This document shows, in pieces, positions 31,109 to 35,863 of a DNA stretch of 53,954 nt. The position numbers and the translations under genes were made by a program. Where the stretch lies: assembly GCA_964501515.1 (NCBI GenBank), contig CAZCSS010000001.1, forward strand, positions 1-53,954. The letters are read 5' to 3'. The DNA is from an uncultured archaeon. GTDB taxonomy: Archaea; Aenigmatarchaeota; Aenigmatarchaeia; QMZP01. The notes below the pieces were generated by a model, which saw nothing but the letters and a program-made list of their open reading frames with translations, was not told the origin of the DNA and did no database searches. How positions within the stretch are numbered: the first letter of the stretch is position 1; every line of letters begins with the position of its first letter.

Positions 31109-31807
31109 CTACACCCTGACTTCCACCTTGCCAAAAAATGGCCTCAGGTCTTCTGCAAAAACCCTGAGCTCCCCGGCAGAATAGGGTTTCTCCTTCTGAT
31201 AGGATTTGTCCAGGGTTATGTTCGGCCGGAACTGCTGGAGCACATACTTTTCCGAGCCCTTCAGCCACCTTGCCATATTCATGAGATCTTCGCTGCTGTG
31301 AAGTATGGGGAGCACAGTGGTCCTGAACTCGTATCCAATCCCGCTTTCCCTTATAATCCTCACGCTCTTCTGTATGGCTGACTTATCCACCCTGGCATTC
31401 ACAACCTTCTCATACTTCTCCAGGGGGGCCTTGATGTCCATTGATACGTAGTCCAGAAGGTTCTTCGCCAGAAGGGATTCCAGCATCCCCGGGTTCGAGC
31501 CGTTTGTGTCCAGCTTGACCATATAGCCCAGTGATTTTATCCTGCTTATAAAGGAGGGCAAACTGCTGTAAATGGTGGGCTCACCTCCTGTTATCACCAC
31601 CCCGTCAAGCCACTGCTTTCTTTTCAGAAGAAACTCAATTACGCTCTTCTCTGGTATTGTCCTGAGCCGGGTGTTGGGTGTTTCCACAAGATCAGGGTTC
31701 TGGCAGAAGGGGCAACGGAAGTTGCATCCTCCTGTGAAAATCACGCATGACACCAGACCCGGATAATCCACTGCAGATGTTTTCTGAATGCCTTTTATGG
31801 GTATCAT
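31109..31807 (-). CDS. nrdG: Anaerobic ribonucleotide reductase activating protein (radical SAM)
   Basis: GGCNFRCPFCQNP. It starts 4 nt after the nrdD stop. Confidence 0.9.
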   Translation of the reverse strand: MIPIKGIQKTSAVDYPGLVSCVIFTGGCNFRCPFCQNPDLVETPNTRLRTIPEKSVIEFLLKRKQWLDGVVITGGEPTIYSSLPSFISRIKSLGYMVKLDTNGSNPGMLESLLAKNLLDYVSMDIKAPLEKYEKVVNARVDKSAIQKSVRIIRESGIGYEFRTTVLPILHSSEDLMNMARWLKGSEKYVLQQFRPNITLDKSYQKEKPYSAGELRVFAEDLRPFFGKVEVRV

Positions 31808-31811
31808 GGTA

Positions 31812-34388
31812 TCAACCCTTGCCGGCAGCGGCCCTGATGGGTTTCCTGTCTATGGTCTCGGGGGCAAACGTCTTTCTGAACTTCCATTCCTCCTGCTTAC
31901 CGGCATTCCAATTGGAAACAGGCCTGAAATAGCCAACAATCCTTGAAAAAACCTCATTCGGCTGGCCGCATATCGGGCACTTCTGAACCTCTCCCCTCAT
32001 GTAGCCGTGGCTCTTGCAAACGCTGAATGTTGGGGTTATGGAAAAATAAGGCAGTTTTGTGTTGTGCGCTATCTTTCTCACGAGTTCTCTTGTGGCCTTC
32101 CAGTCAGCCATGCTCTCTCCAAGGAAGGTGTGGAATATGGTCCCGCCTGTGTAGAGGGGTTGTATGTCATTCTGGTGCTCCAGGGCTTCCACAATGTCCT
32201 CGGTGTAGTCAACAGGAAGCTGGGTGGAGTTTGTCAGGAAGGGCTCGGATTCTCCTGCTGTTATTATATCGGGGTGGAGTTTCTTGTCAAGCCTGGCCAG
32301 CCTGTAGGATGTGGACTCCGCAGGGGTGGCCTCAAGGTTGTAGAGGTTGCCTGTCTCATTCTGGAACTCCTTCAGTTTTTCCCTCATGAACTTCAGAACC
32401 TTTATGGTGAATTCCTTCCCTTCGGAAGTGGCTATGCTCTTGTTCATGAAATTAAGGCAGCATTCATTCATCCCCACCAAACCGATGGTGGAGAAGTGGT
32501 TGTTAAACGTTCCCAGATAGGTCTTTGTGTAAGGCATGAGCCCGTTCTCCAGATTCTTGTTCACCACCCTTCTCTTTATCTCAAGCGCGTCCCTTGCTAT
32601 TTTCATGTAGTGCTCAAGCCTTTCGAAGAACTCCTGTTCTGTCTTGGACTCGTAACCAAGCCTGTTCATGTTCAGGGTAACCACCCCTATCGAGCCTGTG
32701 TTGTCGCCCGGCCCCCACATGCTGCCCGGCCTTTTCATAAGCTCCTTCTGGTTTATGTTGAGTCTGCAGCACATGGCCCTTATGGACCTGGGGTCAAGAT
32801 TGCTTCCGACATAGTTCTGGAAGTAAGGCGTTCCGTACTTCGCTGTCATCTGAAAAAGGAGTTTGGCGTTCTCTGAATCCCAGTCAAAGTCCCTTGTTAT
32901 ATTGTAAGTGGGAATGGGGAACGTGAATATCCTTCCCATGGCATCCCCTTCTATCATGACCTCCATAAAGGCCCTGTTTATCATGTCCATCTCCTTCTGG
33001 CAGTCTCCGTATGTGAAGTCCTGGGGCTTGCCTCCCACTATGGCAGGCTCGTTCCTCATATCCTCAGGCGCGACCCAGTCAAAGGTGAGGTTGGAAAAGG
33101 GATACTGCGACCCCCACCTTGACGGTATGTTCAGAGAAAAAACAAGCTGCTGCATGTTCTGCTTCACGCTTTTGTAATCGAGATTATCGGCCCTTACAAA
33201 CGGTGCCAAAAGCGTGTCCACGGATGAGAAAGCCTGTGCTCCTGCAAACTCCATCTGCAGGCACCCTATGTAATTCACCATCTGGTGGACCACTGTGGAA
33301 AGGTGCTTTGCCGGCTTGCAGTCCACCTTGCCCTTCACCCCCCCAAAACCCATCACAAGAAGATTCTTCAGGCTCCAGCCGGCACAATAGCCTATAACAC
33401 CATGCGAAAGATCATGCAGGTGTATGTAGCCCTTTCTGTGCGCATCAGCTATAACAGGCGTGTACATCTGGGTGAGGTTATAGTTGGCCATCACCCTGCC
33501 TGCAGCATACAAAAGCAGCCCGGAGAAAGAGTACTGTTCATTGCTGTTTTCCTTCACCCTCCAGTCCATCTGGTCAATGTAGGATGATATTGTGTCATGA
33601 ACGTCAATCATTACATTTCTGGTTTCCCTGAGTTTTTCCCGCTGCTTTCTGTAGAGTATGTAGGCCTTGGCCGTGCTGGCGTGTCCGTTCTCTATGAGAA
33701 TCTTCTCCACAGTGTCCTGTATGTCCTCTACCTGAGGGATGTCCTTGCTCCCGAATTTTCCTTCAAGCGCCTCCACAACCTTGTAGGAGAGCTTCTCAGC
33801 GATCGACCTGTCCTTGCCCCCCACTGACTGGGCGGCCTTCCATATGGCCTCTGTTATCCTTTCCTGGTCAAACGGGACAACGTTCCCGCCCCTCTTCCTT
33901 ATCTTTGTTATCAGTGATTTTTTCCTTTTCTTTATCCTCTCGTCAACGAGTCTCTTCAGTTCATTCTCAAACTCGGTGATGTCCCTGAACTCCTTGTATA
34001 TTGAAGCAAACCTTATGTAGGCCACCTTGTTGATGTTCTTGAGTTTGCCTATCACAATCTCTCCCAGTCTGGATGATGATATCTCAGTGGTGCCTGTTTT
34101 CCTGAGTTCTGACTCTATCTCATTGACAGCATCATCAATCTGGCTCCTGGAAACAGGCGTTTTCTCGCATGCCTTTATTATGCTCGACTGAAGTTTATCG
34201 CGGTCGTAACTTTCCCTTCTTCCGTCTTTCTTGACCACTGTCAGGTCCAGGCTCTCTATTTTCTCATAAGTGGTGAACCTCTTTCCGCAGGAAGAGCATT
34301 GCCTTCTCCTTCTTGTGGCAGCAAGTCCTCCTGTCTCCCTCTTGTCAATAACCCTGTTGTCTTCAGAACCGCAATACGGACATTTCAT
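31812..34388 (-). CDS. nrdD: Anaerobic ribonucleoside-triphosphate reductase NrdD with a full-length NrdR-like module fused at the N-terminus (about aa 1-150)
   Basis: The N-terminus reads MKCPYCGSEDNRVIDKR...RRRRQCSSCGKRFTTYE...KVAYIRFASIYKEFRDITEF (NrdR Zn-ribbon plus ATP-cone). A second ATP-cone follows (KRGGNVVPFDQERITEAI), then the NrdD core. The C-terminus has CPICG and the glycyl-radical site SRIVGYFRP. Confidence 0.9.
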   Translation of the reverse strand: MKCPYCGSEDNRVIDKRETGGLAATRRRRQCSSCGKRFTTYEKIESLDLTVVKKDGRRESYDRDKLQSSIIKACEKTPVSRSQIDDAVNEIESELRKTGTTEISSSRLGEIVIGKLKNINKVAYIRFASIYKEFRDITEFENELKRLVDERIKKRKKSLITKIRKRGGNVVPFDQERITEAIWKAAQSVGGKDRSIAEKLSYKVVEALEGKFGSKDIPQVEDIQDTVEKILIENGHASTAKAYILYRKQREKLRETRNVMIDVHDTISSYIDQMDWRVKENSNEQYSFSGLLLYAAGRVMANYNLTQMYTPVIADAHRKGYIHLHDLSHGVIGYCAGWSLKNLLVMGFGGVKGKVDCKPAKHLSTVVHQMVNYIGCLQMEFAGAQAFSSVDTLLAPFVRADNLDYKSVKQNMQQLVFSLNIPSRWGSQYPFSNLTFDWVAPEDMRNEPAIVGGKPQDFTYGDCQKEMDMINRAFMEVMIEGDAMGRIFTFPIPTYNITRDFDWDSENAKLLFQMTAKYGTPYFQNYVGSNLDPRSIRAMCCRLNINQKELMKRPGSMWGPGDNTGSIGVVTLNMNRLGYESKTEQEFFERLEHYMKIARDALEIKRRVVNKNLENGLMPYTKTYLGTFNNHFSTIGLVGMNECCLNFMNKSIATSEGKEFTIKVLKFMREKLKEFQNETGNLYNLEATPAESTSYRLARLDKKLHPDIITAGESEPFLTNSTQLPVDYTEDIVEALEHQNDIQPLYTGGTIFHTFLGESMADWKATRELVRKIAHNTKLPYFSITPTFSVCKSHGYMRGEVQKCPICGQPNEVFSRIVGYFRPVSNWNAGKQEEWKFRKTFAPETIDRKPIRAAAGKG

Positions 34389-34429
34389 TCATAACACCTC
34401 CTGACCCCACGAGATTCGTGCGCCCTCTC

Positions 34430-34780
34430 TCAGCCAATGTAGCTGTGAACGTCCTCTTCAGCCACCACGTCCGAGACAATCTTGCCCTTCTTGACCGGTT
34501 TCTTGGGGGACGGTATCTTGCCGAACCTCTTCTCATAGTTGGCCAGATTCTCCTTGAGTATCTGCAGGAAGACCTTTATGAGATCCGGATCAAGTATTAT
34601 TGTGTTGTGCTTGACCGCTATGGTCTGCTTCTTCTGCTCGCCAACTGTGTCGATTCTGGGCGTGACCTGCTTGAAGTTTATGATGAACTTCGCGGGGCTA
34701 TGAATTATGCTTATTGAATTGGCATAGAACGCCTCTTTTCCGTGGTCAACCCTGACCTCTATCTGTTTTTTGCTTTCCAT
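34430..34780 (-). CDS. DUF3467 protein
   Basis: AFYANSISIIHSPAKFIINFKQVTPRID...LDPDLIKVFLQILKENLANYEKRFG. GTG 34789 is an alternative start. Confidence 0.7.
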   Translation of the reverse strand: MESKKQIEVRVDHGKEAFYANSISIIHSPAKFIINFKQVTPRIDTVGEQKKQTIAVKHNTIILDPDLIKVFLQILKENLANYEKRFGKIPSPKKPVKKGKIVSDVVAEEDVHSYIG

Positions 34781-34807: not shown

Positions 34808-34823
34808 TAATCAATATATTGTA
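34808..34823. promoter_or_regulatory. NrdR-box-like palindrome 1 (aatCAATATATTGtat), overlapping a TATA-like element
   Basis: The 10-bp core CAATATATTG is a perfect palindrome and fits the NrdR-box core CwAtATaTwG. It lies 19-34 bp upstream of the operon's first start codon. Confidence 0.55.
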
Positions 34824-34839
34824 TATATCTCTAAGAGAT

Positions 34840-34855
34840 AACACAACATATTGTG
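34840..34855. promoter_or_regulatory. NrdR-box-like palindrome 2 (acaCAACATATTGtgc)
   Basis: 14 of 16 positions match the NrdR-box consensus as I recall it (acaCwAtATaTwGtgt). It starts exactly 32 bp from box 1. Confidence 0.55.
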
Positions 34856-34956
34856 CCAAGCAATATTATATTAGGCAAAAGCCCTTTATAAGAATTTTGC
34901 TTCCCAAATATACATTTTAAAGGCTCTTCTTGAAAAACAACCGCACACAGCTCTGC

Positions 34957-35863
34957 TTATGAGAAAAGCCCTGCCTCCCTGGCGTGCTCAACAACCTCCA
35001 TGTACTCTTCATGTGAGAGCGGCCTTGAGATCTCAGGATACTCTCCTGCCCTCCAGCACGGCCTGTACTGCGGCAATATGTTAACGTAGGCGTTTCCGAG
35101 ATTCTTTCCTATCCAGCCCACTATGGGCTTTGCATCGCATTCTATATGTCCGGGCATCACAAGCAGGCGGATTATAAGATCGCCTTGTCTTCCGGCAAAC
35201 AGGATGTTTCTCTTTGCTGTTTTTGGATATCCGGGCGCCTGGCTGAGCCGCACAGCGCATCTCTCGCTAAAATAGCGGAAATCCAGCAGATAAATGTCCA
35301 CTATTCCTTTCAAAAGCCCGGCAGCCTCGCTGGAATAATAGGAATTGGAATTGAATATCACCGGGATGTCAGACTTCACGTGCCTGAGAGTCTCCAGGAT
35401 GAACGGGATGAATGGTGTGGGGTCTCCGCCCACAAAGTTTACATTAAGGGCACCTGTCCTTGCAGCAGAATCTATCCACCTGGCTGCCCGCTCAGGAAAC
35501 CATGCTTCGCCATGCTCAGGACTCATGCTTTCAGGGCATTTTGACAGTAGACGCACCTCATGGTGCATCCTGACATGAACAGCGTCCCGCTTGGAACCAG
35601 TTCGGGCTCCTCCCCGTAGTGGAGATGCGCCCCAAAAAGCAGCGGCTCTTTCCCTGCACGGCAGAAACCCTTTTCTCCATTTGTTCTGTCAGCCCGCATC
35701 TCCTCACGCAGAGAACGCAGTTTTTCAGCATCCTGCGGGCTTTTCTTGTCTTCCCTTCAAGCGCACCGCTATCCGCGGCCTTCCTGAACCCCGGCTTCTC
35801 GTCTCCTGAGAGGATTCTCCGGTACCGGGGGAGGGCAGACATGTCCATGAAAGCCCTGCTCAT
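34957..35863 (-). pseudogene. PflX-like radical SAM protein (pyruvate formate-lyase activase homolog) interrupted by two 1-nt frameshifts
   Basis: Three consecutive frames carry the parts of one protein: LKNCVLCVRRCG, then ADRTNGEKGFCRAG...HLHYGEEPELVPSGTLFMSGCTMRCVYCQNA, then ESMSPEHGE...ALNVNFVGGDPTP. The frame switches fall at the ccc run 35693-35695 and the ggg run 35534-35536. Confidence 0.75.

What the first reader, a model, noticed from the sequence alone, without database searches (positions are those of the whole stretch)
31812..34388. A complete NrdR repressor is translationally fused to the anaerobic ribonucleotide reductase NrdD
The first roughly 150 aa of this 858-aa ORF align motif by motif with bacterial NrdR: the Zn-ribbon CPYCG...RRRRQCSSCGKRFTTYE, an ATP-cone, and the signature KVAYIRFASIYKEFRDITEF. 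A lysine-rich linker (DERIKKRKKSL) leads in frame into the usual NrdD ATP-cone and catalytic core, which has CPICG and the glycyl-radical motif RIVGYFRP. There is no Met or stop codon at the junction, so the fusion cannot be read as two genes. NrdR is known as a free-standing nucleotide-sensing repressor of nrd operons, mainly in bacteria. Tethering it to the enzyme it regulates would create a reductase that could bind its own promoter, or it would repurpose the module as an extra allosteric cone.
Basis: partly seen in the sequence, partly recalled or inferred. Interest (0 to 1): 0.65.

Follow-up and report, generated by a model that had tools for sequence, protein, structure and literature searches.

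The report
Ribonucleotide reductase fused to its repressor
An archaeal gene joins the DNA-building enzyme NrdD to a complete copy of NrdR, the repressor that normally controls it, and NrdR's binding sites sit in this gene's own promoter, so the enzyme probably switches off its own production when DNA building blocks are plentiful.

Summary
ORF 31812-34388 (-) encodes 858 aa: a full-length NrdR (TIGR00244, 1-147/147, above cutoff), a 10-aa Lys-rich linker, then a complete ATP-cone-bearing class III RNR (NrdD). nrdG starts 4 nt downstream.

It is not an assembly artefact. 59 of the 120 best homologue clusters, all DPANN archaea, share this architecture. Another 52 have the Zn-ribbon fused directly to NrdD's own cone. 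Identical fused proteins recur on 10-21 independent contigs. Close relatives carry the unfused nrdR|nrdD|nrdG operon with 1-25 nt gaps, which is the likely precursor.

The repressor part looks functional. Zn ligands and DNA-contact residues are essentially invariant in 120 fused proteins, and nucleotide-site residues are conserved.

The only two NrdR-box matches in the 54-kb window form a canonical 32-bp-spaced pair (34841-34856, 34809-34824). They lie just downstream of a TATA-like element, in the promoter of the DUF3467–nrdRD–nrdG operon. Strong boxes precede all 13 fused loci examined and occur in none of 150 control windows.

Best reading: a bifunctional enzyme and dATP-sensing autorepressor.

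The architecture is common in databases, but I found no description of it in the literature. It is a new variant of known kinds.

The parts
34885..34891 (-). TATA-like element (TTATAAA within cTTATAAAgg). It is the inferred archaeal core-promoter element of the operon.
   Evidence: It starts 35 nt upstream of the distal NrdR box. The block GCTTATAAA is fully conserved with the closest relative L168 while the flanks diverge. A TATA-like heptamer lies 21-40 nt upstream of the distal box in most related loci. Its function and the transcription start site are inferred, not mapped.
34841..34856 (.). NrdR box 1 (distal). It reads GCACAATATGTTGTGT on the minus strand.
   Evidence: 2 mismatches to ACACWATATATWGTGT. 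21.7 bits on a PWM built from 34 DPANN boxes, the highest score in the window. 15 of 16 bases are identical in L168.
34809..34824 (.). NrdR box 2 (proximal). It reads ATACAATATATTGATT on the minus strand and starts 32 bp after box 1.
   Evidence: 3 mismatches and 15.5 bits, the second-highest score in the window; the next best anywhere is 10.4. 14 of 16 bases are identical in L168, while the 16-bp inter-box spacer is only about 5/16 identical. The 32-bp spacing is the canonical three-helical-turn spacing (PMC9110341; bioRxiv 10.1101/2025.03.28.645925).
34430..34780 (-). DUF3467 gene, the first gene of the operon, lying between the boxes and nrdRD.
   Evidence: PF11950 E=6.6e-12. The same gene sits in the same place in L168. 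ATG 34780 is preferred over the GTG 34789, because ATG and the upstream AGAAGTGAA block are conserved with L168 but the GTG frame is not.
34395..34401 (-). Shine-Dalgarno-like GGAGGTG, ending 6 nt before the nrdRD ATG.
   Evidence: Read directly from the 41-nt DUF3467–nrdRD spacer.
34254..34388 (-). NrdR Zn-ribbon (residues 1-45), the DNA-binding module.
   Evidence: PF22811 at 1-42. C3, C6, C31 and C34, plus R12, D15, R17, R26-29 and R37, are identical to the S. coelicolor DNA-contact residues. These positions are invariant or near-invariant in 65 two-cone and 55 one-cone fusions.
33939..34253 (-). NrdR-type ATP-cone (residues 46-150), the nucleotide sensor of the repressor module.
   Evidence: PF03477 and TIGR00244. 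The S. coelicolor nucleotide-site and switch residues K50, R51, E56, K62, K69, F124, V127 and Y128 correspond to K53, K54, E59, K65, K72, F127, I130 and Y131. K53 and K65 are 100% conserved in 50 two-cone fusions.
33909..33938 (-). Lys-rich linker (residues 151-160, RIKKRKKSLI) at the fusion junction.
   Evidence: No stop codon or start codon. pLDDT dips to 58-66 over residues 140-160. The linker is 10-25 aa and variable in homologues, and some retain a vestigial Met.
33603..33908 (-). NrdD's own N-terminal ATP-cone (residues 161-262), the allosteric activity site.
   Evidence: Second PF03477 hit. PRK08270 begins at residue 161. It matches the cones of 5olk and 5im3.
31812..33602 (-). NrdD catalytic core (residues 263-858) plus stop codon. 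It contains the finger-loop MCCRL (32760-32774), CPICG (31965-31979) and the glycyl-radical motif RIVGYFRP (31920-31943).
   Evidence: PF13597 at 280-841 and TIGR02487. T. maritima NrdD 4coi E=3.5e-46.
31109..31807 (-). nrdG, the radical-SAM activase, starting 4 nt after the nrdRD stop codon.
   Evidence: TIGR02495 NrdG2, 218.5 bits (cutoff 131).

Best explanation
The gene encodes one polypeptide that is both a class III (glycyl-radical) ribonucleotide reductase and its own NrdR-type repressor.

Origin (inferred): loss of the stop codon in a tight nrdR-nrdD-nrdG operon of a DPANN archaeon.

Mechanism (inferred from established NrdR biochemistry): when dATP rises relative to ATP, the NrdR-type ATP-cone binds ATP plus dATP. 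The NrdR modules of two NrdD dimers assemble into the tetrameric DNA-binding form. Their Zn-ribbons then bind the two 16-bp NrdR boxes, spaced 32 bp apart and lying immediately downstream of the TATA-like element. This covers the transcription start and blocks RNA polymerase recruitment to the DUF3467-nrdRD-nrdG operon. In parallel, the second cone, which is NrdD's own, inhibits catalysis allosterically.

Shown here: the fusion ORF, its recurrence, conservation of DNA-contact and nucleotide-contact residues, and box pairs at the promoters of fused genes.

Inferred: DNA binding by the intact fusion, the nucleotide dependence, the position of the transcription start, and repression.
For: The continuous ORF carries full-length NrdR and NrdD models above curated cutoffs. 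111 of the 120 best homologue clusters are fused (59 two-cone, 52 one-cone). Identical fused proteins occur on 10 contigs (P0005) and 21 contigs (P0099) from independent samples. Split nrdR|nrdD|nrdG relatives have 1-25 nt gaps. Zn ligands and D15, R17, R26-29 and R37 are invariant in 65 two-cone and about 55 one-cone fusions. Cone nucleotide-site residues are conserved. The only two box-like sites in the 54-kb window form a 32-bp-spaced pair in the operon promoter. Every fused locus examined (8/8 two-cone including the window, 5/5 one-cone) has a box of at least 19 bits upstream, against 0 of 150 control windows. Strict pairs occur in 6/8 two-cone and 5/5 one-cone loci, against 1 stray pair in 1.2 Mb. 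Boxes and TATA are conserved with L168 while the spacer and flanks diverge. The TATA-to-box-1 distance of 21-40 nt is consistent across loci. One-cone fusions, which have no separate NrdR cone, still keep the Zn-ribbon residues and box pairs. This argues that the fused polypeptide itself is the DNA-binding species.
Against: There is no experimental evidence of any kind. It is untested whether NrdR's tetrameric DNA-binding geometry tolerates an approximately 700-aa NrdD on each C-terminus through a 10-aa linker. The AF2 monomer cannot address this. The window covers only 54 kb of the genome, so a free-standing NrdR elsewhere cannot be excluded. Locus L018 shows a box pair in front of an nrdD with no linked nrdR, so trans-acting NrdRs probably exist in related archaea. 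The proximal box in the window is weak (15.5 bits, right half GATT instead of GTGT). Two two-cone loci (L164, L170) show only one strong box. The transcription start is not mapped.
Confidence: 0.6

Rival explanations
1. The fusion is real, but it is functionally neutral packaging. The polypeptide would be separated into NrdR and NrdD, either by proteolysis at the Lys-rich linker or by internal translation initiation. The two parts would then act exactly as in the split operons.
For: The linker is short, basic and predicted to be flexible. The fused and split states have interconverted repeatedly on the NrdD tree, with about 13 state changes by parsimony on an NJ tree. That suggests little functional cost either way. 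Some fusions retain a vestigial internal Met at the old nrdD start.
Against: The window gene and its whole clade (P0001-P0014) have no in-frame ATG, GTG or TTG near the junction. In the one-cone fusions, cleavage would leave a 45-aa Zn-ribbon with no oligomerisation domain, yet its DNA-contact residues and boxes are conserved.
Confidence: 0.2
2. The NrdR module has been repurposed as an extra allosteric or oligomerisation cone for the enzyme, like the multiple cones of some class I RNRs, and no longer binds DNA. The boxes would be served by a separate free NrdR.
For: RNRs with two or three tandem ATP-cones are known. A box pair exists at L018 without a linked NrdR. Free NrdRs are abundant in DPANN.
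Against: A Zn-ribbon that no longer bound DNA should drift. Instead the four Cys, D15, R17, RRRR and R37 are invariant in about 120 fused proteins spanning roughly 60% identity. Boxes co-occur with every fused locus examined. No second NrdR is found in the 54-kb window.
Confidence: 0.12
3. The fusion is an artefact: an assembly chimera or a sequencing error that removed a stop codon or frameshift between adjacent nrdR and nrdD genes.
For: The nearest species-representative genomes (L001-L004, 69-73% identity) have split genes only 1-7 nt apart in different frames. A single indel could therefore fuse them.
Against: The window's own clade of 14 clusters at 72-83% identity is uniformly fused, with the same junction length. 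The sequences come from JGI, ENA, Logan and NCBI assemblies. Identical fused proteins occur on 10 and 21 independent contigs.
Confidence: 0.02

Closest known systems
NrdR, the bacterial ribonucleotide-reductase repressor (TIGR00244; structures S. coelicolor 7P37 and E. coli-type 9FXK)
   Same: It has the Zn-ribbon plus NrdR-type ATP-cone, with all published DNA-contact, Zn-ligand and nucleotide-site residues. Its cognate 16-bp palindromic boxes occur in pairs 31-32 bp apart in an RNR operon promoter, and the arrangement is autoregulatory.
   Different: It is covalently joined to the enzyme it regulates rather than being a free protein of 140-220 aa. The host is an archaeon, so the boxes lie downstream of a TATA-like element rather than over -35/-10 hexamers. 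The reviewed literature calls NrdR rare or absent in archaea.
Class III RNR NrdD with an N-terminal ATP-cone (T. maritima 4COI, P. copri 8P23; PRK08270)
   Same: ATP-cone, MCCR finger loop, glycyl-radical motif, a C-terminal metal-site motif, and an adjacent nrdG.
   Different: It carries an additional 160-aa NrdR module at the N-terminus.
Split nrdR-nrdD-nrdG operons of DPANN archaea (L001-L007, L081-L090), Treponema and Chloroflexota
   Same: The same genes in the same order. The archaeal ones have the same box pairs upstream, and their NrdD cores are 65-73% identical to the window's.
   Different: A stop codon and a 1-25 nt gap (or a 4-nt overlap) separate nrdR from nrdD. This is the likely precursor or derivative state.
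One-cone fusions (Zn-ribbon directly on NrdD's own ATP-cone, about 750 aa; P0037-P0118, L005, L083, L085, L172-L174)
   Same: They belong to the same DPANN NrdD clade. They have the same Zn-ribbon residues and the same box pairs, sometimes two pairs.
   Different: The NrdR-type cone is missing, so a single cone would have to serve both catalysis and DNA binding. The Zn-ribbon-to-cone spacing is 10-16 residues instead of a fixed 10.
Enzyme-repressor bifunctional proteins: PutA (proline dehydrogenase with an RHH domain), BirA and NadR (from my own knowledge)
   Same: This is a works-like analogy. A metabolic enzyme carries a DNA-binding domain and represses its own operon in response to its metabolite.
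   Different: The folds and ligands are unrelated. Here the DNA-binding module is a whole pre-existing repressor with its own sensor domain.
RNRs with multiple tandem ATP-cones (e.g. P. aeruginosa NrdA, 5IM3)
   Same: There are two consecutive ATP-cones at the N-terminus of an RNR catalytic subunit.
   Different: The outer cone here is the NrdR subtype and is preceded by a DNA-binding Zn-ribbon.

Membership tests
NrdR (TIGR00244) | N-terminal Zn-ribbon with two CxxC motifs | tested here: met
   C3, C6, C31 and C34 are present. PF22811 matches 1-42 at 62 bits (cutoff 27). These Cys are invariant in fused homologues.
NrdR (TIGR00244) | DNA-contact residues: RRRR motif, D15, R17, R12 and R37 | tested here: met
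   All are identical, at identical numbering, to S. coelicolor NrdR. They are conserved in 120 fusions, with R12 mostly replaced by K.
NrdR (TIGR00244) | NrdR-type ATP-cone with inner and outer nucleotide-site residues | tested here: met
   K53, K54, E59, K65, K72, F127, I130 and Y131 align to S. coelicolor K50, R51, E56, K62, K69, F124, V127 and Y128.
NrdR (TIGR00244) | Full-length match above the curated equivalog cutoff | tested here: met
   1-147 of 147, 183.6 bits against a cutoff of 124.65.
NrdR (TIGR00244) | Paired 16-bp NrdR boxes, about 31-32 bp apart, in RNR promoter(s) | tested here: met
   Boxes at 34841-34856 and 34809-34824, 32 bp apart, are the only such sites in the window. The pattern recurs in related loci.
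NrdR (TIGR00244) | Free-standing protein of about 140-220 aa | tested here: not met
   The module continues in frame into NrdD, giving 858 aa in total.
NrdR (TIGR00244) | dATP+ATP-dependent tetramerisation, box-specific DNA binding, and repression | not testable with these tools
   This requires biochemistry: MST or EMSA, SEC-MALS, and in vitro transcription.
Class III RNR catalytic subunit NrdD | NRDD catalytic domain above curated cutoffs | tested here: met
   PF13597 629.7 bits, TIGR02487 556 bits (cutoff 326), PRK08270 1069 bits (cutoff 548).
Class III RNR catalytic subunit NrdD | C-terminal glycyl-radical motif RxxGY in the same chain | tested here: met
   RIVGYFRP at residues 816-823.
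Class III RNR catalytic subunit NrdD | Finger-loop cysteine motif (MGCR or MCCR) | tested here: met
   MCCRL at 539-543, invariant in alignment A1. The motif classes are from PMC9669993.
Class III RNR catalytic subunit NrdD | Adjacent radical-SAM activase NrdG | tested here: met
   TIGR02495 NrdG2, 218.5 bits, starting 4 nt downstream.
Class III RNR catalytic subunit NrdD | Ribonucleotide reduction activity and its allosteric control by the cone | not testable with these tools
   This requires an enzyme assay.
Enzyme-autorepressor fusions (PutA/BirA/NadR type; functional analogy only) | The same polypeptide catalyses a reaction and binds the operator of its own operon | tested here: inconclusive
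   The domain content, conserved contact residues and operator-like boxes at its own promoter all support it. Intactness of the polypeptide in vivo and DNA binding are untested.

The most novel reading that the evidence does not exclude
The intact glycyl-radical reductase is itself the transcription factor. It would be a dATP/ATP-sensing enzyme-repressor that shuts off its own archaeal (TBP/TFB-type) promoter through bacterial-type NrdR boxes. In the sister one-cone lineages, a single ATP-cone would control both catalysis and DNA binding. That would be the first case of one allosteric domain gating both the activity and the transcription of the same enzyme from within one polypeptide.
Probability: 0.5. 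Interest if true: 0.78.

Novelty: new variant of a known kind. Interest (0 to 1): 0.62.

Why it matters
NrdR and the RNR ATP-cone are the textbook example of one mobile sensor domain used at both the gene level and the enzyme level. Here the two levels are welded into one protein across a whole radiation of DPANN archaea.

If the fusion binds its own promoter, it gives a natural minimal system for three questions. How does NrdR oligomerisation couple to RNR oligomerisation? How does a bacterial-type repressor act on an archaeal promoter? In the one-cone forms, can one cone serve both roles?

It also corrects the view in current NrdR papers that the regulator is rare or absent in archaea. Canonical boxes and NrdR modules are widespread in DPANN.

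Tried and rejected
- A regex-based NrdD classifier missed most loci. I replaced it with phmmer segment probes.
- I looked for NrdR boxes upstream of the class II RNR (nrdJ-cobA) that lies next to one-cone fusions in L172 and L174, as evidence of regulation in trans. None were found at 7 bits or more.
- A negative control using NrdD loci without a linked NrdR was ambiguous. Most DPANN-like ones lack boxes, but L018 has a pair, and 20 of 122 bacterial loci have strong boxes, presumably served by an unlinked nrdR.
- Searching with the NrdR module alone returned only free-standing NrdRs in its top 120. It revealed no fusions to other RNR classes and did not even list the known fusions, so it says nothing about other architectures.
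- The top hit of that search, P0121, is just an NrdR with an internal partial duplication.
- The AF2 monomer (pLDDT 80, pTM 0.67) confirms folded modules and flexible linkers. It cannot address whether four NrdR modules can assemble on DNA when tethered to NrdD dimers.
- The sigma-70 promoter scanner was not used, because the host is archaeal.
- The architecture-change count (Fitch, at least 13) rests on an unsupported NJ tree and is only indicative.
Full report
**Observation.** The window carries an uninterrupted 858-codon ORF at 31812-34388 on the minus strand. Pfam finds a Zn_ribbon_NrdR domain (1-42), two ATP-cones and a complete NRDD domain (280-841). NCBIfam matches the NrdR equivalog TIGR00244 end to end (1-147 of 147, 183.6 bits, cutoff 124.65). 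It also matches the NrdD equivalog PRK08270 from residue 161 to 842 (1069 bits, cutoff 548). There is no in-frame ATG, GTG or TTG between residues 122 and 189. The N-terminal 150 residues align without gaps to solved NrdR structures (9fxk E=7e-41; S. coelicolor 7p37 E=6e-30), and the core aligns to T. maritima NrdD (4coi, E=3.5e-46). nrdG (TIGR02495) starts 4 nt after the stop codon. The window is archaeal: it has ribosomal L19e and L5e, the RFC small subunit and an archaeal Hel308 domain 4. It contains no other NrdR, ATP-cone or NrdD ORF.

**Not an artefact, and not rare.** I classified the 120 best homologue clusters with segment probes. 59 are Zn-ribbon / NrdR-cone / NrdD-cone / core, like the window. 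52 are Zn-ribbon / NrdD-cone / core (about 750 aa). Only 9 lack the Zn-ribbon. Where sources name the hits, they are Aenigmarchaeota, Woesearchaeota, Nanoarchaeia or Nanobdellota. JGI already labels several of them 'anaerobic ribonucleoside-triphosphate reductase/transcriptional regulator NrdR'. The identical fused protein P0005 occurs on 10 contigs and P0099 on 21 contigs from independent samples. The window's own clade (P0001-P0014, 72-83% identity) is uniformly fused with the same junction length.

**Origin.** Many close relatives have nrdR as a separate ORF of about 150 aa. Examples are L001-L004, L006, L007, L017 and L081-L090, with NrdD cores 65-73% identical to the window's. In these loci nrdR ends 1-25 nt before nrdD, or overlaps it by 4 nt, usually in another frame, and nrdG follows. 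Treponema and a Chloroflexota genome show the same split operon. Some fusions keep an internal Met where nrdD used to start. On an NJ tree of the NrdD core, the two-cone fusions, one-cone fusions and split forms are interspersed in one DPANN clade. Parsimony needs about 13 state changes, but this is indicative only, because the tree has no support values. The simplest reading is repeated loss or gain of the inter-gene stop codon in a very tight operon, with secondary loss of one of the two tandem cones.

**The repressor module is under selection for DNA and nucleotide binding.** The S. coelicolor cryo-EM work identifies R12, R26-29 and R37 as backbone contacts and D15 and R17 as specificity determinants. 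It identifies K50, R51, E56, K62, K69, F124, V127 and Y128 as nucleotide-site and switch residues (PMC9110341). The window protein has the DNA-contact residues at identical numbering. It has K53, K54, E59, K65, K72, F127, I130 and Y131 at the aligned cone positions. Across 65 two-cone and 55 one-cone fusions, the four Cys, R17, R27-29 and the FTT-E motif are invariant. D15, R26 and R37 are nearly so, and R12 is replaced by K. K53 and K65 are 100% conserved in 50 two-cone fusions. A Zn-ribbon that had become a passive appendage would not be expected to retain this pattern.

**Operator sites.** I searched the whole window for the NrdR-box consensus with up to 3 mismatches. This gave exactly two hits, at 34841-34856 and 34809-34824, spaced 32 bp start to start (0.29 hits expected by shuffling). 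A PWM built from 34 DPANN boxes scores them 21.7 and 15.5 bits, and the next best site in 54 kb scores 10.4. They lie in the 167-bp intergenic region upstream of a DUF3467 gene. That gene is followed after 41 nt, with a GGAGGTG Shine-Dalgarno-like sequence, by nrdRD, and after 4 nt by nrdG. The closest relative, L168 (83% identity, intein-containing), has the same DUF3467 gene and a box pair at the same distance.

Between the window and L168, box 1 is 15/16 identical, box 2 is 14/16 and the GCTTATAAA block is fully conserved. The inter-box spacer is only about 5/16 identical.

Across non-redundant loci, strict pairs were defined as no more than 4 mismatches per box and 30-33 bp spacing. They occur upstream of 6 of 8 two-cone fusions (including the window), 5 of 5 one-cone fusions and 6 of 12 archaeal split operons. 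Only one stray pair was found in 1.2 Mb elsewhere. With the PWM, every fused locus has at least one box of 19 bits or more upstream, against 0 of 150 control windows (maximum 16.6 bits). A TATA-like heptamer starts 21-40 nt upstream of the distal box in most loci, and 35 nt upstream in the window. By inference, this puts the transcription start at about the first bases of box 1 and the box pair over roughly +1 to +48.

**Mechanism proposed.** Established NrdR biochemistry says the ATP-only form makes non-binding higher oligomers. The dATP+ATP (or ADP) form makes a tetramer whose two Zn-ribbon pairs bind two boxes three helical turns apart (PMC9110341, PMC12176259). I infer that the fused protein senses dATP/ATP through the NrdR-type cone. 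It would bind its own promoter just downstream of TATA and block RNA polymerase recruitment. The second cone would inhibit catalysis, as in P. copri NrdD (PMC11226230). Because NrdD is dimeric, two dimers would have to supply the four NrdR modules. The AF2 model shows separately folded modules joined by lower-confidence linkers at residues 140-160 and 250-290, which is compatible with this but not a test of it. The one-cone fusions retain the Zn-ribbon contacts and box pairs. This is the strongest argument that the intact fusion, rather than a released NrdR, is the DNA-binding species.

**Rivals.** Cleavage or internal initiation would restore separate proteins. This is possible, but there is no start codon in this clade, and it makes little sense for the one-cone forms. 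A non-DNA-binding extra cone, with the boxes served by a free NrdR, is disfavoured by residue invariance. It cannot be excluded, because only 54 kb of the genome is seen, L018 shows boxes without a linked nrdR, and free NrdRs are abundant in DPANN. An artefact is effectively excluded.

**Relation to what is known.** Each component is a bona fide member of its family; see the membership table. What is unusual is the covalent union and the archaeal setting. I checked the recent NrdR structural and mechanistic papers (PMC9110341, PMC12176259, PMC12051234, bioRxiv 10.1101/2025.03.28.645925 and 10.1101/2024.05.27.596032). I also checked the NrdD cone papers (PMC11226230, PMC12662201), the RNR horizontal-transfer survey (PMC3019208) and the family-wide insertion/extension analyses (PMC9531940, PMC9669993). 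None mentions an NrdR-NrdD fusion. The NrdR papers describe the regulator as rare or absent in archaea. The searchable library is limited to open-access papers and bioRxiv, so an earlier mention elsewhere cannot be excluded, and the domain combination is visible in public annotation. I therefore rate it a new variant of known kinds: common in sequence databases, uncharacterised, and experimentally tractable.

Noticed in passing
L170 5468-5677 (also L171; L017 6479-6913; L008 6600-7172; L013 6723-7259; L014 6634-7185): In 17 of the top 120 clusters (the 800-840-aa two-cone class, e.g. P0099, seen on 21 contigs) the NrdD chain ends just before the glycyl-radical motif. The motif ('...SRVVGYYRP...') is encoded on a separate small ORF about 10 nt downstream. 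The same arrangement occurs in Treponema, where NrdR-like boxes at 42-43 bp spacing lie between the two ORFs. It looks like a naturally split glycyl-radical subunit, reminiscent of GrcA for pyruvate formate-lyase. One literature search found no description.
   Followed up: partly
L005, L083, L085, L172-L174; P0037-P0118: 52 of 120 clusters fuse the NrdR Zn-ribbon directly to NrdD's own ATP-cone, with no NrdR-type cone. They keep the DNA-contact residues and the box pairs, and L085 and L172 have two pairs each. A single cone would have to serve both regulation levels.
   Followed up: partly
window 34430-34780 (-): A DUF3467 gene sits between the NrdR boxes and nrdRD, here and in the closest relative L168. 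It is therefore apparently co-regulated with the reductase. Its role is unknown.
   Followed up: partly
window 34957-35863 (-): A radical-SAM gene immediately upstream of the operon promoter is broken into two overlapping ORFs in different frames (35558-35863, 101 aa; 34957-35568, 203 aa, PF04055). It is probably a frameshifted pseudogene or a sequencing error.
   Followed up: partly
window 34895-34925 and L168 ~335-365: A block upstream of the TATA-like element (AAAAyGTATwTT..GGAAG..AAAT) is also conserved between the window and L168. It could be a BRE or a second regulator site.
   Followed up: no
P0002/L168, P0012, P0013, P0043, P0058, P0068, P0076, P0078, P0088, P0094, P0102: Inteins (PF14890/PF14528) interrupt the NrdD core at three or more different positions in fused homologues: after about residues 336-347, about 445 and about 450. 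The window's closest relative is one of them; the window gene is intein-free.
   Followed up: no
L165, L166, L169, L172, L174 (between nrdD and nrdG); L001, L003, L007 NrdD C-termini: Many related loci carry a small thioredoxin/glutaredoxin-like ORF between nrdD and nrdG. Split-form NrdDs of 820-830 aa instead have a C-terminal extension of about 110 aa at that place. P0120 has an N-terminal glutaredoxin domain. The window has none of these.
   Followed up: no
L172 373-2645; L174 559-2753: A class II RNR (nrdJ) plus cobA operon lies directly upstream of the one-cone nrdRD gene on the same strand, but has no detectable NrdR boxes of its own.
   Followed up: yes
L018 ~1650-1700: An nrdD with no adjacent or fused nrdR nevertheless has a 32-bp-spaced box pair (21.4 and 18.5 bits) upstream. 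This implies an unlinked NrdR acting in trans in that genome.
   Followed up: no
P0121 (ENA, 223 aa): A free NrdR with an internal partial duplication: residues 1-99, then a restart at the RRRR motif. It is likely an assembly or tandem-duplication oddity.
   Followed up: yes
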